Shown piece after piece: positions 11,015 to 44,800 of a stretch of DNA of 44,849 bases. This DNA is from Escherichia phage EC115. Positions within the stretch are counted from its first letter, which is position 1. The number at the start of each line of letters is the position of its first letter. The DNA lies in sequence record NC_073080.1. One strand, 5' to 3'. The notes beneath the pieces are model-generated. The model was not told the DNA's origin. It did no database searches and worked only from the letters and a program-made list of their open reading frames with translations. A program made the position numbers and the translations under genes.

Positions 11015-11043
11015 TTTGGTCGCTTAAATAGCGGGTGTTAATA

Positions 11044-11068
11044 TGGGGCCAGTACGGCCCCTTTTTTA
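11044..11068 (+). terminator. Intrinsic terminator after major tail gene
   Basis: GGGGCC-agta-CGGCCCC hairpin followed by a T-run. Confidence 0.6.
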
Positions 11069-12144: not shown

Positions 12145-14787
12145 ATGGCAGATCAGGCAGCGGGCATCACGCTCAAGGCGGACGTCGCGCAAATTAAAAC
12201 GGCTAATACTGTGCTGGACACATTCGCGCAGAAATCCGAGAACACAGAACAGAAAGTAAAGAAATTAAACGACACACTCGGCAAGTCGAAAAAGGTTACT
12301 GGCGACGCCGCGGGCGGAATGGAAAAGTTAGCGACTGAATCGCAGCGCGCCGCCGACGGCATGACGAAACAGGAGCGACTAGCCAGCCGATTAGGCATGT
12401 CGACCAAAAACCTGGGATTTGCTTCACGGAACGCGGCATTCCAGTTACAGGATATTGCGGTAACGCTTGAGATGGGTATGCCGGTGCACCGCGTCATGCT
12501 TCAGCAGTTACCACAGCTAACCGGCGCATTCGGCGGATTAGGTAACACGCTGCGTTATGTTGCGGGCTTCCTCGGCCCAGTAGGGATCGGACTTGCGGCA
12601 GTAACGGCGACGTTAGGCGTGGGCGTGGCAATCACGTCACGGGCAGAGAACCAGGTAGCCGCGCTTAATAAGACGCTGGCGCTGTCCGGTAATATTTCAG
12701 GCCTCACAGCTAACCAGATCCTTGTGCTGTCCGAGAACGCTGAGCGCATGGGCGGGTCATTTCGCAAGACGCGTGACACAATCCAGGCGCTGGCGGCGGC
12801 GGGTGTGAAAGCGGGTGGTGACTTCGGCGCATTGGCTAAGGTAGTTAATGACTTTGCGAAGGTGTCCAGCCAGCCGATCGAGGATGTGGTGGCGGCGGTG
12901 GCGAAGCTGTCAACCGACCCCGTTGGCGGACTGCGTGCGCTGGCGGATAAGTATCACGTCGTAAACGAAGCGCAGATCCAGCAGGTACAGTCGCTCGTTG
13001 ATGCGGGTCGTGAGACAGACGCAGTTGCGTTGGCTAACAAAACAGCCGCTGCGTCGTTCACCAGTATGACCAATGAGATCAAGGCGAACATGGGTACGCT
13101 TGAGCGATCTATGAACGTCGTCACATCGGCAGCCAAATCAATGTGGGATGCCATCCTGGATGTGGGCCGCGCGCAGTCCTCCAATGAGTCCGAGATGAAA
13201 GCGCGCGAATCACTACAGCGCATGACCACGGCTTACTATGCCGAGATGAAAGCGGTAAACGCTGCCGGTGGGGTAATGACTGAAGCGCAGAAAGCACGTA
13301 TTAACATGCTTTACAGCGAACTGGTCGCCCAGGAAAAAGTGGTGGCGTCGCTCACCCTGCGTAACCGTGCTGAGCGAGACAACGCCCGCGCCGCAGACGA
13401 ATCCGCAAAGGCGAACGAGGAGGCCAACCGCACTGCCCGTGACCGCGCCGCGTTCGAGAAGGAATACGCCACCAACGCTAAGAAGCGCGCCGACGAGATC
13501 GCCCGCCTCAATTTGCTGAATAAGCGCGGCGTTATTGATGAGAAAGAACTAGCCGAGGCGGTGAAGCAGGTAAACGAGCGGTACAAAGACCCAGCCCCGA
13601 AAAAGGCCGCGGCTGTTCGCGTGGATGCCGGTATGAAAATGCTGGAAGTCGCACGGAGCGAACTGGCCCAGCTTCGAGAATCCGGCAAGCAGATCGAAGC
13701 CAACGCGTCTACGCAGACCCGCACGCAACGCGCTCAAGCGGCCTTAAACAAGCTGATCGCCGACAATGAGCAGTTAATCGCTGCGAGCAAAGAAAGAGCG
13801 CTAACGGCAGCAGAAAAGCAGCAATTAGTCGAGTTCGGGCGCGTGAAGGAAGTCCGCGAGCAGATCGTCGAAGAAGCCAAATTGCTGGATGCGAAAGAGC
13901 AGCAGGTTAAGGCGCACGCGCAGATCGATGCCTTCGTTAAGAACCAGAACGCCGAACTAAAAGCCACCGCCGCGGGGTATGCGCTTTCCACTCGCGAAGC
14001 GGCAAACCTGCGCGAAGAATTGCAGCTAATTGACCGCCTGAAGCGGGTTGGCGCTAACGATACCGATATTGACAAGGCGGTGTCTAAGCTGCGAGAAGTG
14101 CAGGAAGCACAGACCGGCGCTAACGCCTCGTTATGGGATGGATTCAGTCGCGGGCTTAAGGATAGCGTGGATGAAATGGGTAACGGATATACGCAGATGG
14201 CGTCGCTCACGAAATTTACATTCAGCGCTATGCAGGACACGATGAACGAGTTTTTCGAGACTGGTAAGCTGAACGCAAAGGATATGGTTAAGTCCATCCT
14301 GAGCGAATTAATCAAGCTGGCTACCTCGCAGGCGTTCAAGTCCATCGTTAGCGCTTTCGGTGGTGACGGCGGCAAAAACGGATTGTTCGGCGCTATCTTC
14401 TCTGGCCTCACTAAGAATGCGGACGGCGGAGCGTACACAGGCGGCAATCTCGCGGCCTATTCGGGGAAAGTGGTAAGCCAGCCTACCTTTTTCAGTTATG
14501 GCGTCCAGGCGTTCGCTAAGGGCGCTGGGTTGATGGGTGAGGCTGGACCCGAGGCCATCATGCCACTGAAGCGCGGGCCGGACGGGAAACTGGGCGTTGC
14601 CGCGTCTGGCGCAGGCGGTGGTATGGTCGTGACGACTAACGTTTACACGGGGACCGGTAAGACGGACACCAGTGTTAGCGGGCCAGACCCACGTACCGCG
14701 CAGGCGTTCGGCAAGCAAATCACCGAGGCGGTGAAGTCCGAGATCGTGAAAGCGACTAAACCAGGTGGTGTACTTTACAAACGATGA
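12145..14787 (+). CDS. Tail tape measure protein
   Basis: 880 aa, Ala/Gln-rich coiled-coil with Gly-rich C-terminal region; follows G/GT and precedes the M-L-K-I-J block. Confidence 0.9.
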   Translation: MADQAAGITLKADVAQIKTANTVLDTFAQKSENTEQKVKKLNDTLGKSKKVTGDAAGGMEKLATESQRAADGMTKQERLASRLGMSTKNLGFASRNAAFQLQDIAVTLEMGMPVHRVMLQQLPQLTGAFGGLGNTLRYVAGFLGPVGIGLAAVTATLGVGVAITSRAENQVAALNKTLALSGNISGLTANQILVLSENAERMGGSFRKTRDTIQALAAAGVKAGGDFGALAKVVNDFAKVSSQPIEDVVAAVAKLSTDPVGGLRALADKYHVVNEAQIQQVQSLVDAGRETDAVALANKTAAASFTSMTNEIKANMGTLERSMNVVTSAAKSMWDAILDVGRAQSSNESEMKARESLQRMTTAYYAEMKAVNAAGGVMTEAQKARINMLYSELVAQEKVVASLTLRNRAERDNARAADESAKANEEANRTARDRAAFEKEYATNAKKRADEIARLNLLNKRGVIDEKELAEAVKQVNERYKDPAPKKAAAVRVDAGMKMLEVARSELAQLRESGKQIEANASTQTRTQRAQAALNKLIADNEQLIAASKERALTAAEKQQLVEFGRVKEVREQIVEEAKLLDAKEQQVKAHAQIDAFVKNQNAELKATAAGYALSTREAANLREELQLIDRLKRVGANDTDIDKAVSKLREVQEAQTGANASLWDGFSRGLKDSVDEMGNGYTQMASLTKFTFSAMQDTMNEFFETGKLNAKDMVKSILSELIKLATSQAFKSIVSAFGGDGGKNGLFGAIFSGLTKNADGGAYTGGNLAAYSGKVVSQPTFFSYGVQAFAKGAGLMGEAGPEAIMPLKRGPDGKLGVAASGAGGGMVVTTNVYTGTGKTDTSVSGPDPRTAQAFGKQITEAVKSEIVKATKPGGVLYKR

Positions 14788-14793
14788 TAAAAT

Positions 14794-14820
14794 GGCCCTC
14801 ACTACAACGTGGGGGCTTTT
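14794..14820 (+). terminator. Hairpin plus T-run directly before the gene M start
   Basis: GCCCTCAC-tacaac-GTGGGGGC followed by five T, then ATG at 14822; terminator or attenuator. Confidence 0.4.
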
Positions 14821-14821
14821 T

Positions 14822-15421
14822 ATGTCACAAGGTACAATCACACTAACGAAAGGAAGTAAGACCGTCACGGGCGCGGGAACGGCGTTCCTTAGCGAGATCG
14901 GGAAGGTACTCGTATTCGCCCGCATCGACGGCAACGACTACACCGGCAAAATTGCGGCATTCAACTCGAACACGGTCATTACGCTGAAAGATAACTGGGC
15001 TGGGCCAACGAAATCCGGTGCGGCATATGAGCTAATCGAAGCACACGACCCGCGATCAAACGAATGGCCCTATTACTGGCACATGCAATTGCAGGGCGGT
15101 GGCGACGTGCAGTTAGCTTTCCGGTCCGAGGAATTGCAATTCGGTAATGGCTACGGGCAGAACATCGCGGACGGCCCGAACGCCGAAACTAAACAGTTCC
15201 CCGTGCAATTCATAGGGCTGACTACTGACAAGTGGTGCAACCCTAAACTGGTTTACAACTTCCTTCGCGGGCACTTCGTCAAGCCGTTTGTCGTCACCGC
15301 GCCGGATGGCGAAACAGGTTTATTCGTGGTCGAGCGTTCGAGCTTGTCGTACACGGACAACGGACACCTCACGGCAACCGTATCCGCCACCCTTAAGACT
15401 GCTATTGGATTCGTAAGATGA
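14822..15421 (+). CDS. Minor tail protein M-like
   Basis: About 200 aa first gene after the tape measure in lambda-like order; start at ATG 14822 (track ORF 14765). Confidence 0.7.
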   Translation: MSQGTITLTKGSKTVTGAGTAFLSEIGKVLVFARIDGNDYTGKIAAFNSNTVITLKDNWAGPTKSGAAYELIEAHDPRSNEWPYYWHMQLQGGGDVQLAFRSEELQFGNGYGQNIADGPNAETKQFPVQFIGLTTDKWCNPKLVYNFLRGHFVKPFVVTAPDGETGLFVVERSSLSYTDNGHLTATVSATLKTAIGFVR

Positions 15422-20500: not shown

Positions 20501-20973
20501 TCGAGCAGAAGATGACGTCCTCGTTTAACCACTCTGGTGGTAGCGCCACGTATAGCCTTAAGGCTGGCGTGACACATAACGGGACTTATTATGATGCGGG
20601 TATGCAGCTTTCCGTTGTGACGTCTGGCAACGCGGTTAAATCGCGTATTGCGTTCAAGGCGGACCAGTTCTACATCATGCATCCGTCCAATGGGACGCTG
20701 TCGTCTGCGTTTATTGTGGACGGTGGCGCGGTGTATATCGACACGGCACGCATCAAGAACGCGTCCATCAACTTCGCGCAGATAACAGACACGCTGCAAT
20801 CGGATAACTACGACGGCAGCACGCGCGGCTGGCGCTTAGGGAAAGATGGAACGTTTATCAACCTGGGCACCGGTAGCGGCGGCGGGATGAAACAGACGAA
20901 CACAAGAATAAGCGTGAAGGACGGAAACGGCGTTCTCCGCGTGCAGATTGGTGAGCTTACTGGTAGCTGGTAG
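17554..20973 (+). CDS. Tail tip / host specificity protein J-like
   Basis: 1139 aa, size and position as lambda J; Ala/Gln-rich repeats in the C-terminal third. Confidence 0.9.
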   Translation: MTIIYDVTGHKGGGGKQHTPQETPDSLHSLAKIRILLALGEGEFESITSASELRQRVYLDGTPIQNADLSENFPGARVEFRPGTQHQDVIHGFSAVESEQSVGVKLENGTPWVRQINDTSLDAVRIRIGIPALYTNEDNGDLVGGRIDYKIVVYTDNADPREFRFAAVGKTMSLYERDHRIELPPNVNTGWRVEVHRITADSTSAKVVNDIRVQSITEIIDARLRYPLTALLFVEFDAKAFQNIPRVSIKCKGRKVLIPNNYDPINHTYSGDWDGTFKRAWTDNPAWHWYDICITERFGLGRRIKPQMLNRYALYQIAQRCDQLVSDGNGGREIRFKNDMYIQSQTDAWTVLKDLAAIFAGMTWWGNQMLNIVSDQPVAAVSHTITNASVIDGRFDYASGSQKTRYSTFAVAYGNPKNHYEDAIATGQRVELVRRHKINRLDITAIGCTRESEAQRRGHWALISNQLDQQVSFKVGMEGLFFIPGSVVAIADTNISGGFETRGGRLLSDPGTRTVLNTDSEITFRPGDKFLVRTDSGNVETREIASVNGNKVTLKTALDADPIPDQPFCVDGDDIQLQKFRITDLEYDDSTSTFSVRGIEYNDSKYDAVDNGARLDPGIFTQVPDGVMKGPESVTITPSQISSQGQLITNVDIVFPPVKDAVVYEIQWRRTSLQNMEIQWGNDWVNIPRTASNGAHIPNVFSGNYQARVRAIGMGEISSPWVSSAITPVEGRLGGLNAPIITNAISGLHQILWKWNHNNAATDISYTELEVRKTGETEWKFLTNVPYPGAEYAQTSLEFGIYQQLRARVADKIGNLSDWSAPFEGQVSDKVDEYMKGLDDEFLTSEDGKRFQEAINTIPQGIYEAMLTDAQQLFNARAEYKGIYAEISVAYNVAADAHKAVAQLETLIGTRLDDAEAAIHTLQTAQSTQEQAFAQYQQTVAAKFGEQEAAIQQVQTATADVAGALAEYKTQVAAQFGQQSAAIEQKMTSSFNHSGGSATYSLKAGVTHNGTYYDAGMQLSVVTSGNAVKSRIAFKADQFYIMHPSNGTLSSAFIVDGGAVYIDTARIKNASINFAQITDTLQSDNYDGSTRGWRLGKDGTFINLGTGSGGGMKQTNTRISVKDGNGVLRVQIGELTGSW

Positions 20974-20976
20974 TAT

Positions 20977-20996
20977 AGGGGCTTCGGCCCCTTTTT
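20977..20996 (+). terminator. Intrinsic terminator after J
   Basis: AGGGGC-ttcg-GCCCCT hairpin followed by a T-run. Confidence 0.6.
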
Positions 20997-27324: not shown

Positions 27325-27370
27325 CGTGTTGTCTCCGGGTATTAAAAAGGGCTTCCAACCGGACACCCTT

Positions 27371-27399
27371 AAGATAATGCAACCAATATGATTATGCAA
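27371..27399 (-). promoter_or_regulatory. Candidate promoter with two direct TTGGTTGCA copies
   Basis: Minus strand TTGCAT-N17-TATCTT; 9-mers at 27378-27386 and 27395-27403. Confidence 0.35.
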
Positions 27400-36110: not shown

Positions 36111-36120
36111 TGTCTCGTCC

Positions 36121-36151: not shown

Positions 36152-36288
36152 GATAATATTAATCTTCACCGCCGAGTTGTTTATAAACCTCGTCCGGGTC
36201 GTCGCCTCTTTCTTCGCAGAAGGCGGTGAATTCCGCCCAATTTTCTGCTATGAAATCGAGCATGATTCTCATTTCATAGTCCATGATA

Positions 36289-36828
36289 TTAGTCTTCCAG
36301 TTCGAAATAAGTTTCGACGATTTCTTTTAGCTCTGTGTGGAAGTCTTCGACGTCGTCATCTTCCAGCTTGGCGATTGATTTGATCTCGAACGATTCCAGA
36401 AGGTCGTCGAATTCGTCGTTGGCATCGTCGTCGTCACCACCCGCGATAATAGCGGCGTACTGTTTGATCTCGTCGCGCATCTCCGCCAGCGGATCGGCAT
36501 CTTTCTTACCTTTGCCTTTAGCCGGTGCTTTTTTGGTTTTCGCCGGTTTTACGTCATCGGCATCGTCGTCGTCGTCATCTTCTACGACTTCTTTTTTGGC
36601 TTTACCTTTAGACTTGGTTTCTTTTGCCGCGCCTTTTTTCGCTTTTGGCGCATCTTCGACTTCGTCCTGGTCGTCGTCTTCGACTTCAGTCTCCGGCTTG
36701 GCCTTGCCTTTCTTAGCTGTGCCGTTTGCTTTTGGGTCTACGGCAGCGCCAACGGTTTCATAATGCTTAGCGATGGTTTCCAGTGCTACTACGCCGCGAG
36801 TAATCAGGTTTACGATTTGTTCAAACAT
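36289..36828 (-). CDS. Highly charged low-complexity protein (alternating Lys-rich and Asp/Glu-rich blocks)
   Basis: 179 aa; first gene of the leftward operon with GGAG RBS; long poly-acidic runs interleaved with KKGKAK-type basic stretches. Confidence 0.6.
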   Translation of the reverse strand: MFEQIVNLITRGVVALETIAKHYETVGAAVDPKANGTAKKGKAKPETEVEDDDQDEVEDAPKAKKGAAKETKSKGKAKKEVVEDDDDDDADDVKPAKTKKAPAKGKGKKDADPLAEMRDEIKQYAAIIAGGDDDDANDEFDDLLESFEIKSIAKLEDDDVEDFHTELKEIVETYFELED

Positions 36829-37026
36829 GTTTTATATCTCCGATTGGTTAAGTTTAGGTGTCGACCATTAACTTCGTCGGTGGCCTTAACATATTGCCAG
36901 GTTACGCGTTCTCCCGTTCGGGTAGTGGACCTGGTTATATAATCACGGTTGGGAATCCTGACACTTCGATCCGGCCCCTGCGTTGCCCCTCTCCAGTTTG
37001 CGTCCTGCATCCTGTCGACGAGGTGA

Positions 37027-37055
37027 ATATTAGATTGGTTGCATGAGGGAGTCAA
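37027..37055 (-). promoter_or_regulatory. Leftward sigma70-like promoter for the early/replication operon
   Basis: Minus strand TTGACT-N17-TAATAT; overlaps a TTGGTTGCA 9-mer. Confidence 0.5.
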
Positions 37056-37063
37056 CAACTAAT

Positions 37064-37101
37064 TTCAAAAAAAAAGCGCCGAAGCAAAATGCGACGGCGC
37101 T
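37064..37101 (-). terminator. Strong leftward intrinsic terminator (orphan, upstream of the leftward promoter)
   Basis: On the minus strand AGCGCCG-14 nt loop-CGGCGCU followed by nine U (the A9 run on the plus strand). Confidence 0.6.
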
Positions 37102-37125
37102 AACCAATAAGAGACAATGAGACGG
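37067..37125 (-). ncRNA. Candidate small RNA (about 55 nt) ending at the orphan terminator
   Basis: Candidate leftward promoter at about 37131-37158 (TTGAAA-N17-AATAAT on the minus strand) lies about 30 nt upstream of the hairpin; no ORF. Hypothetical. Confidence 0.25.
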
Positions 37126-37170
37126 GAGTATTATTACACGCGTGCGCGCCCGTTTCAATATCCAAAGGAT

Positions 37171-37199
37171 TTGACACCTTGTGGTTTTAGGTGTAGTTT
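37171..37199 (+). promoter_or_regulatory. Rightward promoter for the HTH/primase operon
   Basis: TTGACA-N17-TAGTTT, then GAGGG RBS before the ATG at 37231; divergent from the leftward promoters. Confidence 0.45.
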
Positions 37200-37230
37200 C
37201 GTTGGTCATTAACCAACTGAGGGCAGAGCA

Positions 37231-37560
37231 ATGAATGTAAACGACGCAATCGAAATGTTAACGACGACTGTTAGCAGTGAAACAAGCCGGTCATGGGCTT
37301 ATACCGATGCCGTTGGGGCGGTGCTATTTGAGGTCGAGCGCCTGCGCAGTGTAGAAAAAGAATTACGCGCCAGGCTGGAATTGCTCAACGGTACGGCGGC
37401 GAGCAAGCTACAAAAACACAATGAAGAAATGGAAGAATACAAAAAGCAGGTTATCCGTTTGCGCGCCGAGGGCAAATCCTGGGCGATGATTGCCGAGTTG
37501 ACCGGAATTAATCAGAGCACAGTGCGCTCTTGGGTACGCAATAACAAAACTTCTAAGTAA
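37231..37560 (+). CDS. HTH DNA-binding protein (putative regulator)
   Basis: 109 aa; helical N-terminus and C-terminal HTH-like segment (SWAMIAELTGINQSTVRSW). Confidence 0.6.
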   Translation: MNVNDAIEMLTTTVSSETSRSWAYTDAVGAVLFEVERLRSVEKELRARLELLNGTAASKLQKHNEEMEEYKKQVIRLRAEGKSWAMIAELTGINQSTVRSWVRNNKTSK

Positions 37561-37570
37561 GGCCACGGCA

Positions 37571-39835
37571 ATGAGCTTAATTAAATTCGCTGTAACAAGA
37601 CCCGCTAAAAAAGGCGAAAAAGCCAGGGCGGAAAACTTCCAGATGACGACCGATGAGTTTTTCGAATTTATCAAAGATGCGAAAGAAATCTCCTCGGTGC
37701 ATATCAACAAGACGGAAGATAAAGCCGAGTATGCGCGCCGCAAGCGTAAGGCCGACGGCATCGTGGCGTATACCAGTGACGGATTGCGTCGTAAGACCAG
37801 TGCGGTGGACCGCTCGATCCTGTTCTTTGATATCGACCGCACCGACACTCGCACCTTGCGCCGCTGCCGTAAGGCTTTCATCGATGCGGGTCTGGAACAC
37901 GTATTCCACACCACTACGGGCGACCGCCACCCGCTGAAGGGCGGAACGCGTTGCGCCCGATTCCTGGTGCTCACTGACAAGCCTGTCCCGGCGGAAGACC
38001 TGGGCCGTGTCCAGTATGCGCTATTACACCAACTTGGTCTGTCAGATGTGGACTTCGACGATTGCACGAAAGACACAAACCGCCTGATGTACCTGCCACA
38101 CCAGCAGTCTGTTATTAAGTGCCACTACGGAAAACGTGCCCGAGTCCGTCGTCTGCTTCGCCTGGCGGATAAGTTGGGCGTGGAGAAGGAGGAAGTACGC
38201 CGCGAACTAACCCAGGGCGATGACGCAGTGGCAGACGGCATTCTGGACTGGTGCTTCCAGGCAGGATTCGAGGAGTTATCTTCCGGTCGCGGTTATGAAG
38301 TGCCGTGCCCGAACGAACATCTGCACAGCGGCGAAGGGTCGACGGCTATCATGGTCAAGGATGGCGAGATCCGTTTCAAGTGTATGCACACCGGCAACGA
38401 GTGTTGCTCGGAACTGAATAGACACCAGCACCTGGCGCTGCGTCTTATCGGGATCCCTGACCACCTGAACGTCGAGCCACACAACATGTCCCGTAAGCAA
38501 ATCGCCGCCATCCTTCCGGGGCTGGACGACGAGGAAGTCGAATCCTTATATGAACATATTGTTGATGCGGTTGGCGACGGCGAAGAATACGGCGTGTGCA
38601 CCGATGCGGATCTGGATAACGAGCCGGTTGCGCTGTTCAGCAAGCACGACCCGATCATCGAGGGGTTGATTAACTTCAAATCGACCTGGTACATGGCGGG
38701 TGAGTCGAATATTGGTAAGTCTTTCTACGTGCTGGGTCAAATGGGCGCTGTTGCCGCCGGTATTCCGTTCGGCGGTGCGAAGGTCGTCCAGTCTCATTGC
38801 TTCTATTTCGATGCGGAAGGTGGTGAAGCCTCCAACCAGCGTAAAGAAGCATTGCAGATTAAATACGAGCACGACCTGGACAAGCTGCACATTATCGATC
38901 TGCAGTCACGCGGCTGGGATATCACCAGCAAATCCGGCTTGCGCGAAGTTATCAGCTTTATCAACCGCACCGCTAACGGCGAACCGGTTGGCCTGGTGGC
39001 GTTCGACTCACTCAACCAGACTGTTGCGCTGCGGTCCGCCGATGCTAAACCGTTCGACGAGAACAACGCCAGCGATATGGGTGAAGTGGTCAAAGCGCTG
39101 AAAGCCATTGCGGAAAATACAGGTGGCAGTGCGGGCGTCATCCACCACCCGGCGAAGGGTGCCAACGGCAGCAGAACCCCACGCGGATCCGGCGCGCTGC
39201 ATGGTGCTGTCGATTCTGCGTTCTTCCTGGAACAGCCGGACGACAACCAGCCCGGACAATTGAACCTGTATCACGAAAAGTCACGTAACGGCATCAAGCA
39301 AGCGCCGCGCGGCTTCGTCCTGCTCAAGTGCAAGGTGAAGGTGGATCTCCGCAAGTCAGAAGCGTTCGAGGTGCACCAGTCCACCAGCACCGGGCCAGAC
39401 TTCGGCGACGTGGTTGCCGGATGGGACGTCAAGCCGATTGCCTCCACGCCACGCGACGAGACTCTCTACCTCGTACCGGTTGCCCTGGCACCGTTCGCTA
39501 TTGAACAGGCGAAGGCCGCGGGCAAAGCAGCAGTTAAAGAAGAGAACACCGCCGGACCGCGCAACGAAAAAGAGAAAGTGCTTTATGCGGCACTGGAAAA
39601 ACTGATGGAAGATAACCCGGACCATACTGGATTCAGTAAATCGGCAATTGTCCGCCAGGCTGGGCTGGCAAAAGGTGGCACTTCGACGAAGGCAATCGAC
39701 GATATGGTAGAGCGCGGAGTGATAGGTTTTTACACCGATCCGCACACTGGGGCCATCTATGGGTCGTCTAATTTGGTCATCAAATCGGATATCCCCATCA
39801 CGCTTTCAGCGACCGATGACGATTTAAAAGATTAA
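37571..39835 (+). CDS. DNA primase / RecA-like P-loop helicase with C-terminal winged-helix-like domain
   Basis: 754 aa; N-terminal acidic FFDIDRTD motif, Cys/His zinc-binding segment, Walker A GESNIGKS and Walker B-like FYFDAEGG, C-terminal ~120 aa resembling a winged helix. Confidence 0.75.
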   Translation: MSLIKFAVTRPAKKGEKARAENFQMTTDEFFEFIKDAKEISSVHINKTEDKAEYARRKRKADGIVAYTSDGLRRKTSAVDRSILFFDIDRTDTRTLRRCRKAFIDAGLEHVFHTTTGDRHPLKGGTRCARFLVLTDKPVPAEDLGRVQYALLHQLGLSDVDFDDCTKDTNRLMYLPHQQSVIKCHYGKRARVRRLLRLADKLGVEKEEVRRELTQGDDAVADGILDWCFQAGFEELSSGRGYEVPCPNEHLHSGEGSTAIMVKDGEIRFKCMHTGNECCSELNRHQHLALRLIGIPDHLNVEPHNMSRKQIAAILPGLDDEEVESLYEHIVDAVGDGEEYGVCTDADLDNEPVALFSKHDPIIEGLINFKSTWYMAGESNIGKSFYVLGQMGAVAAGIPFGGAKVVQSHCFYFDAEGGEASNQRKEALQIKYEHDLDKLHIIDLQSRGWDITSKSGLREVISFINRTANGEPVGLVAFDSLNQTVALRSADAKPFDENNASDMGEVVKALKAIAENTGGSAGVIHHPAKGANGSRTPRGSGALHGAVDSAFFLEQPDDNQPGQLNLYHEKSRNGIKQAPRGFVLLKCKVKVDLRKSEAFEVHQSTSTGPDFGDVVAGWDVKPIASTPRDETLYLVPVALAPFAIEQAKAAGKAAVKEENTAGPRNEKEKVLYAALEKLMEDNPDHTGFSKSAIVRQAGLAKGGTSTKAIDDMVERGVIGFYTDPHTGAIYGSSNLVIKSDIPITLSATDDDLKD

Positions 39836-39941
39836 ATTTTGCGCGCATTGGTTGCCATTTTGAGTGTTTTTAGCTGGTAGCATTGGTTGCCGTGTAGTGT
39901 GAATATAATGCATAGTTATGCAATAAAACTGCATAAAGTAA

Positions 39942-40099
39942 GCGGGACAAAAAGCGGGACAAACAGGAGGCGGGACAAAGCGGGACAGCACCCCTGTCCC
40001 GCCCCGGATGACGCGGCCTGACGAGGAGCGGGACAGCGGGACAGCACCCCAGTCTTTCAGACTAGACGGGGGGTCTGTCACCCCCCTCGTCTGAGACTG
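39942..40099. repeat. Second iteron array: GCGGGACA(A/G) repeats plus the same ~48 bp imperfect palindrome
   Basis: Six or more GCGGGACA copies; shares GCGGGACAAAGCGGGACAGCACCCCTGTCCC and AGTCTTTCAGACTAGACGGGGG...CCCCCCTCGTCTGAGACTG with the array at 11765-12076. Confidence 0.75.
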
Positions 40100-40258
40100 C
40101 ATAAAATCCAGGATTGCATAACGCACGGCAGCATGTTGCGGATTGCGGTCGTCGATGAACTAGGCAACCAATGCGAGGTGCAGAATGGCGGGCGGGAAAT
40201 GCAGTTTGCAGTCACAGCAGATAGCGATCAACTTTTTCATGCGCGTGATTAATATTGG

Positions 40259-40287
40259 TTGCATTCGGCCTGGCACCTTGCTATATT
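40259..40287 (+). promoter_or_regulatory. Sigma70-like promoter flanked by TTGGTTGCA copies
   Basis: TTGCAT-N17-TATATT; 9-mers at 40255-40263 and 40286-40294; GAGGA RBS before the ATG at 40316. Confidence 0.5.
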
Positions 40288-40315
40288 GGTTGCACACCAA
40301 CATGAGGACTGAACA

Positions 40316-40642
40316 ATGAAAGCGATTATCTGGAATTACGCAATGGCTATGGCGAAGGCACAAGAAGCGGCGGAGTTCGCCGGTGAAGGAGCGGAAGCGG
40401 TCGAAAGACTATCGGCAGCGTGGTCCGTTGTTCGCGTCACGCAGCAGGCCATCGCCTGTATGCTGGAGCGCCGCTTCGACACGATGGCAGAGATCCAGCC
40501 ACTAGCGAACGCAATCCAGGACTACGCGCTTGCATTTGCCCGTGAGCGCCTGGCGTATCGCTTCGGGATCGGTGAGACGGCAGTGACAAACGTCGCCCGG
40601 ATTAAAGCCCAGCGCGAGCTATTCGCCCAGCTTGCGAAATAA
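40316..40642 (+). CDS. Hypothetical protein
   Basis: 108 aa Ala-rich helical protein, first gene downstream of the promoter. Confidence 0.55.
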   Translation: MKAIIWNYAMAMAKAQEAAEFAGEGAEAVERLSAAWSVVRVTQQAIACMLERRFDTMAEIQPLANAIQDYALAFARERLAYRFGIGETAVTNVARIKAQRELFAQLAK

Positions 40643-40651
40643 GGTGCCAAA

Positions 40652-40924
40652 ATGGACCGCAGACGCGCGAAACAGCTTTCGTGGCATATCCCACTGCATT
40701 GCATACGAATATGGGCTAAGAATGCGAATGAGGGCGATTCTGTGTTCTGGAGCTATCGCGACGATGTGAAGCCCCTAACGCAGACCCGCTATCTGCACCA
40801 GTTCGCCAGGGAGCATGGATTCGCTATAAAAACGTCCTTGCAACCAATTGGCATCCGTATTACATTACGCCGGAAGCCCGCCGTTGAGCGGGTAGGCAAA
40901 CACTGGAGACTGAGCAAATGTTGA
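40652..40924 (+). CDS. Hypothetical protein
   Basis: 90 aa basic ORF in operon context. Confidence 0.5.
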   Translation: MDRRRAKQLSWHIPLHCIRIWAKNANEGDSVFWSYRDDVKPLTQTRYLHQFAREHGFAIKTSLQPIGIRITLRRKPAVERVGKHWRLSKC

Positions 40925-41048
40925 TAGGCGGATTCGCGCAGGAGTTTATCTACCTGCATATGTGCGAACTTGACTACAAACAAAACGGCATCGCTACGGT
41001 ATGCGATGGCGACACGAAGACTATCGAAGAGATCGAGGAGACAGAGCA

Positions 41049-41606
41049 ATGAAATTACTATTCCGCCGTAAGCACGATGGTCGCATCCTGAAGCCGATCC
41101 AGACCCTGGATTCCTACGTCCGCTTACAAAACGCGGCAGGCAATCGGGTGTGGCGGGCACCGAAACACACGCTGCCGCAGTTCTTCGACGTACTCACTCA
41201 CGATATCGAGCGCGGCGATGTGCTGCGGGATATTCGCGACGGGCAATTGTGGGTCGTTGAGCACACCAGCCAGCACGGCTTGCGTATGCAGACCCGCAAG
41301 GGCGGCGTAGCGGGTAACGTTCAGAGGGGTATGACCTACTTCGGGCTGGTCAACTACGTGCGCGTAGGCCGGAACTACACACCTAAGCGCCCTGGTGTAG
41401 TGGCGAAAGAGATCACCCGTACGGAACACCCATATACCAAATACGACGAGAGCAAGGTGCGCCAGCGTATCGACAATGCCAGGGCGCTAGCTGCCGCCAT
41501 GATTCAGGCTGGCAACGATGCCAAACGATTTGGGATTGGTGTTATTCTGGTCTACCCCGACGGCAGCATGAAGTCTACCGATCCGCGCGGGGTCATTCAG
41601 AAATGA
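41049..41606 (+). CDS. Hypothetical protein
   Basis: 185 aa from ATG 41049 (GAGGAG RBS; track ORF 41001); no recognised motif. Confidence 0.55.
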   Translation: MKLLFRRKHDGRILKPIQTLDSYVRLQNAAGNRVWRAPKHTLPQFFDVLTHDIERGDVLRDIRDGQLWVVEHTSQHGLRMQTRKGGVAGNVQRGMTYFGLVNYVRVGRNYTPKRPGVVAKEITRTEHPYTKYDESKVRQRIDNARALAAAMIQAGNDAKRFGIGVILVYPDGSMKSTDPRGVIQK

Positions 41607-41813
41607 GTGCGACGATCCGGGATATGCTTCAGCATAACCGCTTTGAGATAGGCGGTCGGGTATTTCGCAATTACTTCGTGGCGCGTGCATGGGCGCGCCA
41701 TATTGGCAAACCGGAAGGGGCAATTCGATGCTATACGTCTTCGCGGTAGTATGTGGCGGTAGTCTGGCGGCCCTGGTGCTGTTGGCGTCGGTTATTAATC
41801 TGGTTAAATACCT

Positions 41814-42113
41814 ATGGGGCAGATTATGATTCATGATGTGATTTATTGGTTTGGTATGGCAAGCATATTATGCCTGGTTACGGGAGCGCTGGGCGCGATA
41901 TGGGTATTCCTGGTATGGCCCGCCGTGGAAGCCGCCAGCATTACCCGCATGACGTTCGAGGTATACAAGCGCCGTGGAATCACGGAGCACCCGACCAGGT
42001 TGCGCATGTGGTGGCTGTGGTATCGGGATATGATTGGGGGCCGGATGTTCGAGGCCGTCAGATCGGAAGGATGGGAGTGGAAAGGCGTCGGCAAGTGGTC
42101 CGTTTTCGATTAA
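41814..42113 (+). CDS. Membrane protein (lysis-associated?)
   Basis: 99 aa with an N-terminal hydrophobic helix and Trp/Arg-rich C-terminus; upstream of the holin. Confidence 0.45.
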   Translation: MGQIMIHDVIYWFGMASILCLVTGALGAIWVFLVWPAVEAASITRMTFEVYKRRGITEHPTRLRMWWLWYRDMIGGRMFEAVRSEGWEWKGVGKWSVFD

Positions 42114-42130
42114 TTATGCAAGCGTGATAT

Positions 42131-42165
42131 AGTCCCAGTGAGATAAAACTTACTGGGACTTTTTT
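42131..42165 (+). terminator. Hairpin plus T-run immediately before the holin start codon
   Basis: AGTCCCAGT-12 nt loop-ACTGGGACT followed by five T, then ATG at 42166. Confidence 0.45.
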
Positions 42166-42456
42166 ATGGATAAGCTAAACGAGTGGTTATTCGCCCTTGC
42201 GTGTCTTGCTGGTGGCTTCGTAGGCGCACGCATTCATGGCGAGGCAACGAAAGGGCCGTTGAACTTCGTTTTATATGTCGTAGTTGGCTTCCTGTGTGCC
42301 ATATTTGGTGCGCCAGCTATTGCCGAGTGGTCTGGTTTGTCCGGTGAGCGCACTGTTGCCGGTTTGGGCTTCGTAACTGCCATCTTCTGGATGCCAATAG
42401 CTGACCGGATCCGGGAGACAATTGCGTCGCTACACCTTCCGGGGGGCGCAAAATGA
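42166..42456 (+). CDS. Holin (putative, three transmembrane segments)
   Basis: 96 aa with three hydrophobic segments and a charged C-terminus; upstream of the endolysin. Confidence 0.55.
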   Translation: MDKLNEWLFALACLAGGFVGARIHGEATKGPLNFVLYVVVGFLCAIFGAPAIAEWSGLSGERTVAGLGFVTAIFWMPIADRIRETIASLHLPGGAK

Positions 42457-42698
42457 TTATCACCGTCCTGTTGTTTGTTATCATAGGGGCTTCGTCCCTG
42501 TTTAACGTGTATGCGCCGTCCGTTCAGGATGGCTTCTTCGGTCGGGTGTTATATCTGCTAACAGCAATGACCTGTATTGTCGGGCTGTTGCAAACGGGAG
42601 ACGTCTCTGATGCCACCTGGACCGCGTTAATCTGGCTGTTTGCATTGCGCACCCTGCGTAATGCTGTTTTGAATGGGGTAAAACATGCGATTCAGTGA
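42453..42698 (+). CDS. Second holin-like membrane protein
   Basis: 81 aa with three hydrophobic segments; ATGA overlap with the holin, overlaps the endolysin start. Confidence 0.5.
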   Translation: MIITVLLFVIIGASSLFNVYAPSVQDGFFGRVLYLLTAMTCIVGLLQTGDVSDATWTALIWLFALRTLRNAVLNGVKHAIQ

Positions 42699-43176
42699 TA
42701 ACGGTCTACGATTTACGGCAGCATGGGAGGCTTTCAGCCCGGTGCCGTATTTCGCGACCAAGAAAGAGCAGGCCCGCGGCCTGTACACCTGGGGTTATGG
42801 GCACACTGGCACTAATCCGCCACGAAGCATTACCCGTGCGGAAGCGCTGGAACTGCTCAAGCGCGATGTGGCGTATGCTGAGGACTGGGTGAACAAATAC
42901 GCACATCCGAGCATTAACCAGGCGCAATTCGACGCGCTGGTGGATCTGGTAATCAACGCCGGTCCAGGTCCGATCGTACCGGATGACGTCGCGAACGACT
43001 TTGATGATGCGGTGCGACTGGGCGACTGGGCGAAGGTACGAGCTACTCTGCCGCAGTTCCGCAAGCAAGGTGGCGAAGTGCTTAAGGGTCTGGTGCGCCG
43101 TGCAATCGGCAGGCAAGCGCTATTCGATGGTAAGCAGTGGGACGTTGCCGAGCGAATCGGTCGTAACGCTGCATAA
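42685..43176 (+). CDS. Endolysin (phage lysozyme-like)
   Basis: 163 aa; E...YTWGYGHTG segment resembling the catalytic region of phage lysozymes; follows the holins. Confidence 0.75.
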   Translation: MRFSDNGLRFTAAWEAFSPVPYFATKKEQARGLYTWGYGHTGTNPPRSITRAEALELLKRDVAYAEDWVNKYAHPSINQAQFDALVDLVINAGPGPIVPDDVANDFDDAVRLGDWAKVRATLPQFRKQGGEVLKGLVRRAIGRQALFDGKQWDVAERIGRNAA

Positions 43177-43192
43177 TACGAGGTGACACGAT

Positions 43193-43360
43193 ATGTTAAA
43201 AAGTATTCTTGATCATAATGCGGACGCGCTTGCTGCACTGGCTAAAACCGAAGACCCTGGCGCACGCGCTATCATCGCGGACACTATCAGCCATGCAGGC
43301 GTCTTCGATGCGAAGCTGCCAAGCCCACCACCGCAGGAGGAATCTGGTCCTGCAGCGTAA
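43193..43360 (+). CDS. Small hypothetical protein
   Basis: 55 aa with GAGG RBS, Pro-rich C-terminus; followed by a terminator. Confidence 0.4.
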   Translation: MLKSILDHNADALAALAKTEDPGARAIIADTISHAGVFDAKLPSPPPQEESGPAA

Positions 43361-43366
43361 ACAATC

Positions 43367-43394
43367 AAGCCCGGATAATTCCGGGCTTTTTATT
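43367..43394 (+). terminator. Intrinsic terminator after lysis cassette
   Basis: AAGCCCGG-ataatt-CCGGGCTT hairpin followed by TTTATT. Confidence 0.65.
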
Positions 43395-43455
43395 GCTTGA
43401 CTCGCAACCAACACAGGGGCCATACTGCAACCAATCAACTGGAGGAGTAATCAAG

Positions 43456-43536
43456 ATGGCACGTAAAGATATTTGGGTATTAGCGATCTGGACCACCGCG
43501 GCTTTTATCGGCATGGTTATTTGCGAATTGATATAG
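43456..43536 (+). CDS. Hydrophobic micro-protein (26 aa)
   Basis: MARKDIWVLAIWTTAAFIGMVICELI with strong GGAGGAG RBS; two GCAACCAA 9-mers upstream. Confidence 0.35.
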   Translation: MARKDIWVLAIWTTAAFIGMVICELI

Positions 43537-43597
43537 CCAGCCGCCATACGGACCGTGGTATATTGTCCACGGTCCACTAATCAGGAATTAATTAAAT

Positions 43598-44740
43598 ATG
43601 CACCCGCAAACTAAAATTACCGATGAGCAATTGATCGCAGAAATTCAGGCAGGGACTACGGTTAAAGATATTGCGAAGAAATACGGGATTGCCCTACGCA
43701 ATGTTTATATGCGGAAAGCCCGCCTATCGAAAAAATGCATTGGACACGGCAACGATGCCGTAATCCGCAAGCGCGTTGCCGATGGCTTTGGGGTTAAGCG
43801 CGTATCGGCCCTGGTGCGCGGCAATGGCGAAGAGGTCATGTCGTGGGTCATCACTGAGCAGGACAAAGAGCGCCAACTCGAAGCCATGCGCGCTGTTGTC
43901 GAGGGTATGAACAGCGAAATCACACCGGCAGCGCCAGTAAAAGCCCCGCCAGTTCCGATCCAGGCGCTCGACTTGCTCAACCTGTACACCGTGTCAGACT
44001 TCCACCTGGGCATGTTGGCATGGGGCGAGGAGACTGGCGAAGACTGGGATATGGCGATCGCCGAAGACCTGTTCTACCGCTGGTTTGTCGAAGCCTTCGC
44101 ACGCGCCCCGGACGCAGGCACTGCCGTAATTAATATCCTCGGTGATATGGCCCACTTTGATAGCCTCGATGCTGTCACTCCGGCAAGTGGTCACATACTG
44201 GACGCGGACACCCGCTACCAGAGACTGGTACGATACATGATTCGCATGGTGCGCAACGTCGTCGAACTGGCGCTGCAAAAACACCACAAAGTCAAACTGC
44301 TAATCGTCCAGGGGAATCATGATGAGTCGGGCATGATTTGGCTTGCTGAGATGTTCAACACGCTGTACGAGAACGAGCCGCGCGTCGATGTGGACACGTC
44401 CCCGGACGTCTACAAAATGGTGCAGCACGGTAAGACCACGCTATTTTTCCACCACGGGCACAAAGCGCGATTCGATGCTATCGAGCAGGTTATGATCGCT
44501 AAATTCAGACAGGCGTTCGGGGCGAGCGAATACAGCTACGCGCACGTAGGTCATTTGCACCACCAGAAGATTGTTGAGTCCCGCAACATGATTGTTGAAC
44601 AGCACCGGACGCTCGCAGCGAAAGACGCCTACGCCAGCCGTGGTGGTTGGATGTCCGGTCGCAGCGCCAACGTCATTACCTACAGCGCCAACTACGGCGA
44701 AGTAGCGCGCTTAACCATTAGCCCGGAAATGTTGAAGTAA
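43598..44740 (+). CDS. Metallophosphatase with N-terminal HTH-like region
   Basis: 380 aa; calcineurin-like motifs ILGDMAH, GNHDE, GHLHH; N-terminal 40 aa resemble an HTH. Confidence 0.75.
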   Translation: MHPQTKITDEQLIAEIQAGTTVKDIAKKYGIALRNVYMRKARLSKKCIGHGNDAVIRKRVADGFGVKRVSALVRGNGEEVMSWVITEQDKERQLEAMRAVVEGMNSEITPAAPVKAPPVPIQALDLLNLYTVSDFHLGMLAWGEETGEDWDMAIAEDLFYRWFVEAFARAPDAGTAVINILGDMAHFDSLDAVTPASGHILDADTRYQRLVRYMIRMVRNVVELALQKHHKVKLLIVQGNHDESGMIWLAEMFNTLYENEPRVDVDTSPDVYKMVQHGKTTLFFHHGHKARFDAIEQVMIAKFRQAFGASEYSYAHVGHLHHQKIVESRNMIVEQHRTLAAKDAYASRGGWMSGRSANVITYSANYGEVARLTISPEMLK

Positions 44741-44751: not shown

Positions 44752-44787
44752 AAGCCTCCCAGCCTGCCGATTTGGTGGGCTTTTTTG
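44752..44787 (+). terminator. Intrinsic terminator after phosphatase gene
   Basis: Imperfect ~10 bp stem (AAGCCTCCCA / TGGTGGGCTT) followed by a T-run. Confidence 0.45.
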
Positions 44788-44791
44788 TGCC

Positions 44792-44800
44792 TGTTATAAT
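44792..44800 (+). promoter_or_regulatory. Extended -10 element (TGTTATAAT) pointing off the window end
   Basis: TGnTATAAT match 50 nt before the window end; would read into the terminase gene if the genome is circular or permuted. Confidence 0.3.

What the first reader, a model, noticed from the sequence alone, without database searches (positions are those of the whole stretch)
42131..42168. Terminator-like hairpins ending immediately at start codons of the holin and tail gene M
A 9 bp stem plus T-run abuts the holin ATG (42166) with no obvious Shine-Dalgarno sequence, and a similar hairpin plus T-run precedes the gene M ATG (14822). This could be transcriptional attenuation or antitermination timing lysis, or a structure-dependent translation initiation mechanism.
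Basis: seen in the sequence. Interest (0 to 1): 0.4.

Follow-up and report, generated by a model that had tools for sequence, protein, structure and literature searches.

The report
Terminator hairpins hiding ribosome sites
In this E. coli phage (a Dhillonvirus), two strong terminator hairpins sit directly against the start codons of the holin and a tail gene; they contain those genes' ribosome-binding sites and are each preceded by a promoter-like sequence, so they probably stop and silence incoming transcripts while new transcripts start inside the hairpin, which is a compact variant of a trick known from phage T4.

Summary
Hairpin 42131-42160 (12 bp, dG about -19 kcal/mol, z -6) plus a T-run abuts the holin ATG at 42166. 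Hairpin 14794-14817 (9 bp, -15.5 kcal/mol, z -5) plus T5 abuts the ATG at 14822 of a lambda-M-like tail gene. Both are conserved in about 155 Dhillonviruses.

"No Shine-Dalgarno" is not quite right. The SD lies inside the 3' arm (GGGGG for M, a weak GGGA for the holin), and the T-run is the SD-AUG spacer.

Homologous holins in Kagunavirus, Jerseyvirus and a third lineage keep the same layout with unrelated stem sequences (GGAGGA or GGGGGA in the 3' arm, TTG start). The conserved feature is therefore SD sequestration.

An extended -10 promoter-like motif (TGnTAnnnT) ends flush with each hairpin, and with three further hairpins in the genome. These sites rank in the top 0.06% of a sigma-70 scan, with P about 0.001 for the association. 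They are absent at lambda and Kagunavirus terminators.

Best model: junction modules that terminate and translationally lock read-through RNA, while a promoter fires from inside the hairpin, as for T4 gene e. The terminator and the SD sequestration are read from the sequence. The internal promoter is inferred, because no 5'/3'-end mapping exists. I found no evidence for attenuation or antitermination. Moderate interest: a new variant of a known kind.

The parts
42105..42133 (+). Promoter-like site upstream of the holin: -35-like TTCGAT (42105-42110), 17-nt spacer, extended -10 TGaTATAGT (42125-42133). Its last 3 nt are the first 3 nt of the hairpin. Predicted TSS at 42140/42141 (G/A).
   Evidence: Sigma-70 PWM rank 43 of 89,626 positions. 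The TG.TA...T columns are invariant across Dhillon, Kaguna, Jersey and L066 lineages, while the N positions vary.
42131..42160 (+). Terminator-type hairpin: 5' arm 42131-42142, loop 42143-42148, 3' arm 42149-42160. The 3' arm holds the weak SD GGGA (42155-42158).
   Evidence: Identical stem in 15 IMG/VR genomes, with changes only in the loop. 137 of 155 GenBank relatives are at least 95% identical over the junction.
42160..42165 (+). T-run (6 T, the first one paired). It is both the terminator U-tract and the SD-AUG spacer.
   Evidence: T6-T7 in relatives.
42166..42456 (+). Class II holin-like gene (96 aa), first gene of the lysis cassette (second holin 42453-42698, endolysin 42685-43176).
   Evidence: PHROG 2359 holin, E 5e-31. 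Pfam Phage_lysozyme on the third gene. Annotation of phage welsh.
41814..42113 (+). Upstream ORF (99 aa, unknown function). Its stop lies 17 nt before the hairpin, too far for a terminating ribosome to melt it.
14785..14793 (+). Extended -10-like TGaTAAAAT overlapping the tandem stops (TGA TAA) of the tape-measure gene and ending flush with the hairpin. Predicted TSS near 14801 (A). The -35 is poor (GTGGTG).
   Evidence: PWM rank 54 of 89,626. Invariant in 16 genomes.
14794..14817 (+). Terminator-type hairpin after the tape-measure gene: 5' arm 14794-14802, loop 14803-14808, 3' arm 14809-14817. The 3' arm contains the SD GGGGG (14811-14815).
   Evidence: One-sided changes in relatives keep pairing (U.G to C:G or U:A). 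T-run positions vary in 3 of 16 genomes.
14817..14821 (+). T-run (5 T): U-tract and SD-AUG spacer.
14822..15421 (+). Minor tail protein: an 83-aa N-terminal extension plus a lambda-M domain.
   Evidence: Pfam PF05939 on aa 86-192. The full-length form occurs only in Dhillonviruses.
11016..11067 (+). Same composite after the major tail gene: TTGGTC-17-TGtTAATAT (11016-11044), flush with hairpin GGGGCC-AGTAC-GGCCCC (11045-11061) and T6. Here a separate SD GGAG and the ATG at 11084 follow.
   Evidence: PWM rank 15. Conserved with a compensatory stem change (GGGGGC/GCCCCC) and with different -10 hexamers in lineages down to 44% protein identity.
20948..20996 (+). Same composite after the J-like fibre gene: TTGGTG-17-TGgTAGTAT (20948-20976), flush with hairpin AGGGGC-TTCG-GCCCCT (20977-20992) and a T-run. 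SD GAGG, ATG at 21010.
   Evidence: PWM rank 29. Relatives. Lambdoid prophages lack the insert.
27347..27399 (-). Fifth composite, on the early strand: TTGCAT-17-TATCTT (27399-27371), flush with an imperfect hairpin (27370-27347) and a T-run, upstream of the gene starting at 27324.
   Evidence: The welsh equivalent ranks 10.
44761..44800 (+). Terminator (44761-81) overlapped by promoter-like TTGGTG-17-TGtTATAAT (44772-44800) upstream of the small terminase gene. The order here is the conventional terminator-then-promoter.
   Evidence: PWM rank 4..
43367..43426 (+). Bidirectional terminator ending the lysis cassette (43367-88), followed by promoter-like TTGACT-18-CATACT (43397-43426).

Best explanation
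Each site is a junction module between two transcription units of a Dhillonvirus genome.

(1) The hairpin plus U-run is an intrinsic terminator. It ends transcripts coming from upstream: the helicase/small-ORF unit before the holin, and the tape-measure unit before M.

(2) The 3' arm and the U-run are also the ribosome-binding site of the next gene (SD in the arm, U-run as spacer). Any RNA that reads through carries the full hairpin and is translationally locked.

(3) A sigma-70 extended -10 promoter (TGnTAnnnT) ends flush with the hairpin, so its transcripts start at the top of the 5' arm or in the loop. They cannot form the hairpin, so they are neither terminated nor locked.

For the holin this prevents premature holin synthesis from early transcription, which is the logic known for T4 lysozyme gene e. 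For M, the tape-measure stop codon lies only 6 nt from the hairpin, so a terminating ribosome can also melt it. That would give translational coupling and relief of termination.

Steps 1 and 2 are read directly from sequence, thermodynamics and comparative data. Step 3 is inferred.
For: Terminator features:
- dG -19.3 and -15.5 kcal/mol, 5-6 U, positive terminator score.
- Both are intergenic and co-oriented with the genes.

SD inside the 3' arm:
- Anti-SD duplex energies are -8.4 for M and -3.9 for the holin, against a genome median of -6.0.

Sequestration:
- Opening SD..AUG costs 17.3 kcal/mol (holin) and 22.1 (M) in read-through RNA.
- It costs 2.4 and 5.0 kcal/mol in RNA starting at the predicted TSS.
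- The truncated leaders are unstructured (z +0.65 and +0.54).

Comparative evidence for the holin:
- Homologous holins at 46-72% identity are preceded by hairpins with unrelated stems.
- The stems are ATCCTCCAG/CTGGAGGAT in Kaguna and Jersey, CCCCCGTG/CACGGGGG in L066, and AGTCCCCAGT/ACTGGGGCT in LM40P1.
- In each, the 3' arm carries the SD 6-7 nt before the homologous start codon. dG ranges from -18 to -30 kcal/mol.

Promoter evidence:
- TG.TA...T are the invariant columns upstream of these hairpins.
- The four flush sites rank 15, 29, 43 and 54 of 89,626 in a generic sigma-70 PWM scan.
- 4 of 10 + strand terminators carry such a site. P = 0.0013 under a conservative intergenic null and 2e-7 under a genome null.
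- The controls show 0 of 17 in Kagunavirus and 0 of 16 in lambda.
- Flush sites persist, with different hexamers, in lineages with 44-92% protein identity.
- 13 of 18 + strand gaps carry a top-0.06% site 28-54 nt before the start codon.

Precedents:
- T4 genes e, soc, 49 and I-TevI (PMC3014915, section 29).
- TGn promoters inside T7 class II terminators are active without a good -35 (bioRxiv 10.64898/2026.02.12.705533).
Against: - No 5'- or 3'-end mapping exists for any Dhillon-, Kaguna- or Jerseyvirus.
- The -35 elements at the holin and M sites are poor (TTCGAT, GTGGTG), and the discriminators are GC-rich. Activity could be weak or need a factor.
- The M-site motif overlaps tandem stop codons, and the J-site -35 lies in conserved coding sequence. 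Part of the match could be incidental.
- In Kagunavirus the -10 (TATCCT) is weak, it is also constrained as the anti-SD arm, and no clean U-tract follows.
- The conserved GTG can pair with the spacer/AUG region in predicted folds, which is another reason for its conservation.
- The PWM was built from remembered frequencies, and the motif association was noticed post hoc.
- One viable isolate (L-h 1M) lacks the M hairpin altogether.
Confidence: 0.45

Rival explanations
1. These are plain partial terminators (intra-operon attenuators and 3' stabilisers) in a read-through late operon, with no internal promoter. A fraction of polymerases reads through. The downstream gene is translated at a low level when the hairpin is opened, by the ribosome terminating on the tape-measure gene for M, or by breathing and the weak SD for the holin. 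This tunes tail stoichiometry and delays lysis. The promoter-like motifs are incidental.
For: - Terminators after the major capsid, major tail and fibre genes fit stoichiometric tuning.
- The tape-measure stop lies 6 nt from the M hairpin.
- The holin combines a weak SD with ATG, whereas relatives combine a strong SD with TTG. This suggests selection for low holin translation.
- T-run positions at the M site vary among relatives.
Against: - A 17-22 kcal/mol opening cost would nearly abolish translation of read-through RNA.
- The stop upstream of the holin is 17 nt from the hairpin, so ribosomes cannot help there.
- This reading does not explain the flush promoter-like sites, their statistics, their absence from the controls, or their persistence in divergent lineages.
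Confidence: 0.3
2. This is timed antitermination. A phage factor (Q/N-like protein or RNA) makes RNA polymerase resistant to these terminators late in infection, and the conserved -10-like element acts as a sigma-dependent pause or loading site, as at lambda pR'-tR' upstream of gene S.
For: - A terminator sits immediately upstream of the lysis cassette, which is followed by the terminase and structural genes, the lambda-like order.
- A second conserved A/T block (GATTAATTAT / GATAATT) lies upstream of the TGnTAnnnT element in Dhillon and Kaguna.
Against: - No Q, N or other antiterminator family appears among neighbouring proteins, and there is no Rfam hit such as put.
- Antitermination would not free the sequestered SD.
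- The Kaguna and Jersey homologues keep the hairpin but lack a clean U-tract.
- The upstream block scores poorly as a promoter.
Confidence: 0.08
3. The hairpins matter only for the upstream transcript, as 3'-end formation and protection from exonucleases. Their contact with the next start codon is simply genome compaction.
For: - Intergenic gaps are short (34 and 52 nt).
- At the other terminators of the genome a separate SD follows the T-run (8207, 11045, 20977), which shows that abutment is not required.
Against: - The SD is inside the arm in four independent holin lineages with different stems, two of them without a canonical terminator tail.
- The holin junction is more conserved (137 of 155 records at least 95% identical) than its 4.85-kb surroundings (mostly 90-95%).
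Confidence: 0.12

Closest known systems
Phage T4 gene e (lysozyme), soc, 49 and I-TevI: an RBS-sequestering hairpin with a late promoter in its 5' strand (PMC3014915, citing McPheeters et al. 1986)
   Same: A lysis gene's SD/AUG is locked in a hairpin on transcripts that come from upstream. A promoter placed in or at the 5' strand gives transcripts that lack that strand and are translated.
   Different: - The putative promoter here is a host sigma-70 extended -10 type, not the gp55-dependent TATAAATA.
- The hairpin is also a full intrinsic terminator with a U-tract (in Dhillonvirus).
- The gene is a holin, not the endolysin.
- The layout recurs at about five junctions, including structural genes.
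- The TSS has not been mapped.
Lambda pR'-tR'/Q late control upstream of S, R and Rz (my own knowledge of the lambda literature)
   Same: A terminator lies just upstream of the lysis cassette, which heads the late genes (lysis, terminase, head, tail).
   Different: No Q homologue was found. The terminator abuts the start codon, whereas it lies about 400 nt upstream in lambda, and it contains the RBS.
Lambda S 'sdi' stem-loop and dual-start motif (my own knowledge: Blasi, Young and co-workers)
   Same: An RNA stem-loop at the holin translation-initiation region governs holin translation.
   Different: There is no dual start here (MDKLNEW; no Met1-Lys2-Met3). The hairpin hides the SD completely rather than choosing between two starts.
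Intra-operon intrinsic terminators after abundantly needed genes, for example phage f1 gene VIII before gene III (my own knowledge)
   Same: A co-oriented hairpin plus U-tract between adjacent genes. The same genome has such elements after its capsid and tail-tube genes.
   Different: The SD lies inside the 3' arm, and a promoter-like element is flush with the 5' arm.
Sigma-70 TGn promoters embedded in T7 class II terminators (bioRxiv 10.64898/2026.02.12.705533)
   Same: One short sequence combines terminator and extended -10 promoter activity.
   Different: Those are non-hairpin terminators for T7 RNA polymerase in engineered contexts. Here they are natural hairpin terminators for the host polymerase.
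Translational coupling by ribosome-mediated unfolding, for example rpmI-rplT or MS2 coat-replicase (my own knowledge)
   Same: At the M site the upstream stop codon is within ribosome reach of the hairpin that hides the next SD.
   Different: This does not apply to the holin site, where the gap is 17 nt.

Membership tests
Intrinsic (Rho-independent) terminator | G+C-rich stem of about 5-14 bp with a short loop | tested here: met
   12 bp with a 6-nt loop (dG -19.3 kcal/mol) and 9 bp with a 6-nt loop (-15.5); z -6 and -5.
Intrinsic (Rho-independent) terminator | U-tract of at least 4-5 directly after the stem | tested here: met
   T6 (42160-65) and T5 (14817-21), with positive terminator scores. 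The M-site T-run is interrupted in 3 of 16 relatives.
Intrinsic (Rho-independent) terminator | RNA 3' ends at the U-tract in vivo or in vitro | not testable with these tools
   No Term-seq or transcript mapping found for this phage group.
T4 gene e-type transcript-specific translational lock | SD and/or AUG sequestered in a stable hairpin on upstream-initiated RNA | tested here: met
   SDs lie in the 3' arms. Opening cost is 17.3 and 22.1 kcal/mol. The layout is conserved with different stems in 4 holin lineages.
T4 gene e-type transcript-specific translational lock | A promoter in or at the 5' strand, so that its transcripts lack that strand | tested here: inconclusive
   Promoter-like sites are flush with the hairpins (ranks 43 and 54 of 89,626). 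The predicted TSS falls in the last nucleotides of the 5' arm. The TG.TA...T columns are invariant. No TSS data exist.
T4 gene e-type transcript-specific translational lock | T4-type late promoter (TATAAATA, gp55/gp33) | tested here: not met
   The motifs are sigma-70 extended -10 type, and there is no TATAAATA at either site. This is therefore an analogue, not a member.
Lambda-type Q antitermination module | Q-family antiterminator gene next to the late promoter and terminator | tested here: not met
   No Pfam or PHROG antiterminator hit among the genes at 40316-42113 or nearby.
Lambda-type Q antitermination module | Terminator between the late promoter and the lysis genes | tested here: met
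   Hairpin 42131-42160 lies immediately before the holin.
Lambda S dual-start / sdi control | Two closely spaced in-frame start codons giving holin and antiholin | tested here: not met
   The N-terminus is MDKLNEW..., with no second in-frame start in the first 22 codons.
Leader-peptide or alternative-hairpin attenuator | A competing antiterminator structure involving the 5' arm | tested here: not met
   Upstream segments ending in the 5' arm fold no better than shuffles (z -0.46 and +0.71).
Known structured RNA families (riboswitches, put and others) | A match to an Rfam covariance model | tested here: not met
   0 matches at gathering thresholds over the whole window.
Translational coupling by hairpin melting | Upstream stop codon within about 13 nt of the hairpin base | tested here: met
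   Met for M only: TGA at 14785-87 and hairpin from 14794 (6-nt gap). Not met for the holin: TAA at 42111-13 and hairpin from 42131 (17-nt gap).

The most novel reading that the evidence does not exclude
Dhillonviruses and their relatives may use a recurrent 'promoter-inside-terminator' junction. In it a host-type extended -10 promoter fires from within an intrinsic terminator hairpin. One element of 45-60 nt then ends the upstream unit, silences any read-through copy of the next gene's ribosome site, and launches a fresh, translatable transcript. About five such junctions would insulate the transcription units of the genome. At the holin this would give a double lock (termination plus SD sequestration) against premature lysis, conserved across at least three siphovirus genera.
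Probability: 0.4. Interest if true: 0.6.

Novelty: new variant of a known kind. Interest (0 to 1): 0.4.

Why it matters
If the model holds, it shows how a small virulent phage that relies on the host polymerase keeps its holin silent on early transcripts without a dedicated late sigma factor or antiterminator. It would also provide a natural, very compact terminator-promoter-RBS insulator part.

It also has a practical use for annotation. 'Missing' Shine-Dalgarno sequences next to terminators may be hidden in the hairpin arm. Start codons that abut T-runs, including the TTG starts in Kagunavirus and Jerseyvirus, are real.

Tried and rejected
- Upstream in-frame ATG at 14792 as the true M start: rejected, because indels put it out of frame in relatives.
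- A repeated phage-specific motif CGTGNTATNNT: 2 hits against 1.15 expected, so not a family.
- Global enrichment of TGNTANNNT: none (59 against 56 expected). Only its position relative to the hairpins and gaps is non-random.
- Rfam and tRNA scans: nothing found.
- Antiterminator alternative folds: none.
- Q-like or regulator proteins near the holin: none recognisable.
- Large protein search with the holin: only 4 close relatives, so no new lineages.
- Base-by-base covariation counting across lineages: not possible, because MAFFT places the arms of the different lineages out of register. I compared the stems lineage by lineage instead.
- Distant M homologues: they share only the C-terminal domain, so the M junction could not be followed beyond Dhillonvirus-like phages.
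- Literature searches for transcript maps of Dhillon-, Kaguna- or Jerseyviruses: none found.

Full report
**Identity of the window**

The window is a complete, rotated genome of a Dhillonvirus (HK578-like virulent E. coli siphophage). The last 4.85 kb match 156 phage records, the best being phage welsh at 93.9%. Gene order follows welsh:
- + strand 1-24262: terminase, head and tail genes.
- - strand 24289-37209: replication and early genes.
- + strand 37231-44740: helicase-primase, small ORFs, the lysis cassette and a phosphoesterase.

**The observation**

- Holin site: AGTCCCAGTGAG / ATAAAA / CTTACTGGGACT (42131-42160), then T's to 42165 and ATG at 42166. MFE is -20 kcal/mol, z = -6.05, and 0 of 200 shuffles fold as well.
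- M site: GGCCCTCAC / TACAAC / GTGGGGGCT (14794-14817), T's to 14821, ATG at 14822. MFE is -16.9 kcal/mol, z = -5.07.

Both were the top hits of the consensus terminator scan. Both score positive on my re-implementation, from memory, of the d'Aubenton-Carafa score.

The 96-aa product is a holin (PHROG 2359, E 5e-31). It is followed by a second holin-like gene and a lysozyme. The 199-aa product has the lambda-M domain on residues 86-192.

The start codons are sound. A TGA at 42139 closes the holin frame upstream. The in-frame ATG at 14792 is thrown out of frame by 1-2 nt indels in relatives.

**Conservation**

In 14-15 IMG/VR Dhillonviruses the holin stem is invariant and only loop bases change. 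The M stem changes only in ways that keep pairing (U.G to C:G or U:A), while its T-run is interrupted in 3 of 16 genomes.

In GenBank, 155-156 records carry each junction. The holin junction is at least 95% identical in 137 of 155 records, whereas the surrounding 4.85 kb is mostly 90-95% identical. One isolate, L-h 1M, has a different tape-measure/M junction with neither hairpin nor SD.

**The Shine-Dalgarno sequences are inside the hairpins**

I took the start sites mapped from the welsh annotation and measured duplex energies against the 16S anti-SD. The genome median is -6.0 kcal/mol. M scores -8.4 (GGGGG at 14811-15, 6 nt before the ATG). The holin scores -3.9 (GGGA at 42155-58, 7 nt before the ATG).

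Both SDs lie in the 3' arm, and the T-run is the spacer. Opening SD..AUG costs 17.3 kcal/mol (holin) and 22.1 (M) in RNA that comes from upstream.

**Relatives of the holin show what is conserved**

Holins at 46-72% identity are preceded by hairpins with unrelated stems.
- Kagunavirus and Jerseyvirus: ATCCTCCAG...CTGGAGGAT, then UUCAUC and a TTG start.
- An uncultured lineage (L066): CCCCCGTG...CACGGGGG, then AUUUUAUU and a TTG start.
- LM40P1/Ioannina: AGTCCCCAGT...ACTGGGGCT, T5-6, ATG.

These hairpins fold at -18 to -30 kcal/mol with z from -3.9 to -5.4. In each, the 3' arm carries the SD (GGAGGA, GGGGGA, GGGG, GGGA) 6-7 nt before the homologous start codon.

Strong SDs go with TTG starts, and the weak SD goes with ATG. 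The canonical U-tract is present in the Dhillon and L066 lineages but not in Kaguna or Jersey. The conserved property is therefore sequestration of the holin ribosome site. Terminator function is added in some lineages.

More distant holin homologues have an ordinary terminator a short distance upstream:
- Pantoea phage MED16: the terminator is followed by TGCTATCGT and a separate SD.
- L070: the terminator lies 14 nt before the ATG.

**A promoter-like element flush with the hairpins**

In the cross-lineage alignment the invariant columns upstream of the stem are T-G-n-T-A-n-n-n-T, while the n positions vary. This is the extended -10 signature.

In the window, the same motif ends exactly at the first base of three other hairpins or overlaps the hairpin by 3 nt:
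- 11036 TGTTAATAT|GGGGCC (after the major tail gene).
- 14785 TGATAAAAT|GGCCC.
- 20968 TGGTAGTAT|AGGGGC (after the J-like gene).
- 42125 TGATATAGT, overlapping the hairpin by 3 nt.

I ran a generic sigma-70 matrix (frequencies from memory) over both strands. These four sites rank 15, 54, 29 and 43 of 89,626 positions. Rank 4 is TTGGTG-17-TGtTATAAT upstream of the small terminase gene. A fifth flush case lies on the - strand at 27399-27347. Its welsh counterpart ranks 10.

Statistics and controls:
- Four of ten + strand terminators carry such a site within 8 offsets. P = 0.0013 under an intergenic null that includes the four sites themselves, and 2e-7 under a genome-wide null.
- The same pipeline finds 0 of 17 in a Kagunavirus genome and 0 of 16 in lambda.
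- Flush sites persist with different hexamers in divergent lineages: TAACAT, TATTAT, TGATAAGAT and TAGCAT, ranking 1-2 in their loci.
- 13 of 18 + strand intergenic gaps hold a top-0.06% site with its -10 ending 28-54 nt before the start codon. This looks like a genome built from many short promoter-terminator units.

**Predicted consequence**

With the usual 7 +/-1 nt between the -10 and the start site, transcripts would begin at 42140/41, about 14801, 11051 and about 20983. That is at the top of the 5' arm or in the loop.

Such RNAs cannot form the hairpin. The leaders are unstructured (z +0.65 and +0.54), and the opening cost of SD..AUG falls to 2.4 and 5.0 kcal/mol.

**Mechanism proposed**

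- Shown from sequence and comparison: the hairpins are terminator-type structures that contain the downstream SD.
- Inferred: they stop upstream transcripts and lock any read-through copy, while the downstream gene is expressed from a promoter firing inside the hairpin.

This is the logic established for T4 genes e, soc, 49 and I-TevI (PMC3014915), here with a host-type promoter and a real terminator. Extended TGn promoters embedded in terminators have recently been shown to be active without a good -35 (bioRxiv 10.64898/2026.02.12.705533).

For M, the tape-measure stop (14785-87) is 6 nt from the hairpin. From general knowledge of ribosome footprints, a terminating ribosome should melt part of the stem. 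That would add translational coupling and lower termination on translated RNA. The holin site lacks this option because its gap is 17 nt.

**Rivals**

- Plain partial terminators with expression from read-through RNA remain possible (0.3). They do not account for the very high opening cost at the holin or for the flush promoter-like sites.
- Antitermination has no support. There is no Q/N-like protein and no Rfam match, and it would not free the SD.
- Classical attenuation is not supported, as there is no competing fold.
- A purely upstream role in 3'-end stabilisation does not explain SD-in-arm conservation in lineages without a U-tract.

**Caveats**

- No transcript-end data exist for these phages.
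- The -35 elements at the two focal sites are weak.
- Two motifs overlap stop codons or conserved coding sequence.
- The Kaguna -10 is weak and is doubly constrained.
- The matrix and the terminator score are my approximations.
- The association was noticed after looking at the data.

**Verdict**

The element is best described as a new variant of a known kind (a T4-e-like transcript-specific lock fused to an intrinsic terminator). It is of moderate interest until transcript ends are mapped.

Noticed in passing
window 40254-40294, 27378-27404, 6173-6196, 25469-25490, 37034-37043, 43426-43435, 22279-22288, 30340-30361, 39847-39891, 40839-40848: The 10-mer ATTGGTTGCA (reverse complement TGCAACCAAT) occurs 17 times with at most 1 mismatch, against 3.1 expected (0 of 100 shuffles). 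It often occurs in pairs flanking promoter-like sites, where it supplies the -35 TTGCAT and covers the +1 region. It looks like an operator for a phage regulator.
   Followed up: partly
window 39942-40043 and 11765-12022: GCGGGACA occurs 19 times against 2.2 expected. The copies cluster in two iteron-like arrays. One lies in the 480-nt gap after the helicase-primase gene. The other lies in the roughly 700-nt unannotated stretch between the tail chaperone gene and the tape-measure gene. They could mark an origin or another DNA-binding site.
   Followed up: partly
window 43456-43536 and 43549-43574: A 26-codon hydrophobic ORF (MARKDIWVLAIWTTAAFIGMVICELI) with a strong SD follows promoter-like TTGACT-18-CATACT, just after the lysis-cassette terminator. 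It is followed by a perfect 9-bp hairpin (GGACCGTGG..CCACGGTCC) upstream of the phosphoesterase gene.
   Followed up: no
L175 (phage vB_EcoS_L-h 1M, NC_073086.1 31390-31476): This is a natural Dhillonvirus variant in which the tape-measure/M junction is replaced by an unrelated 37-nt sequence. It has no terminator hairpin and no recognisable SD before the same M start codon.
   Followed up: partly
window 14822-15070: The M-like protein carries an 83-aa N-terminal extension absent from lambda M and most homologues. A similar segment (40% identity over aa 1-72) matches DNA of Salmonella phage SW-37, outside any match to the M domain.
   Followed up: no
window 5000-6250: A two-gene island on the minus strand (5026-5790, 5830-6143) interrupts the head module. 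It is bounded by a bidirectional terminator (5000-5020) and a promoter-like site (TGATAATAT, 6236-6244) that would restart + strand transcription.
   Followed up: no
L031 1201, L033 186, L066 1426: The holin genes of Kagunavirus, Jerseyvirus and the L066 lineage start with TTG at the codon homologous to the Dhillonvirus ATG. The Jerseyvirus PK1 record leaves this gene unannotated.
   Followed up: partly
window, all + strand intergenic gaps: 13 of 18 + strand gaps of at least 12 nt contain a sigma-70-like site in the top 0.06% of scores, with its -10 ending 28-54 nt before the next start codon. This suggests many short transcription units rather than one long late operon.
   Followed up: partly
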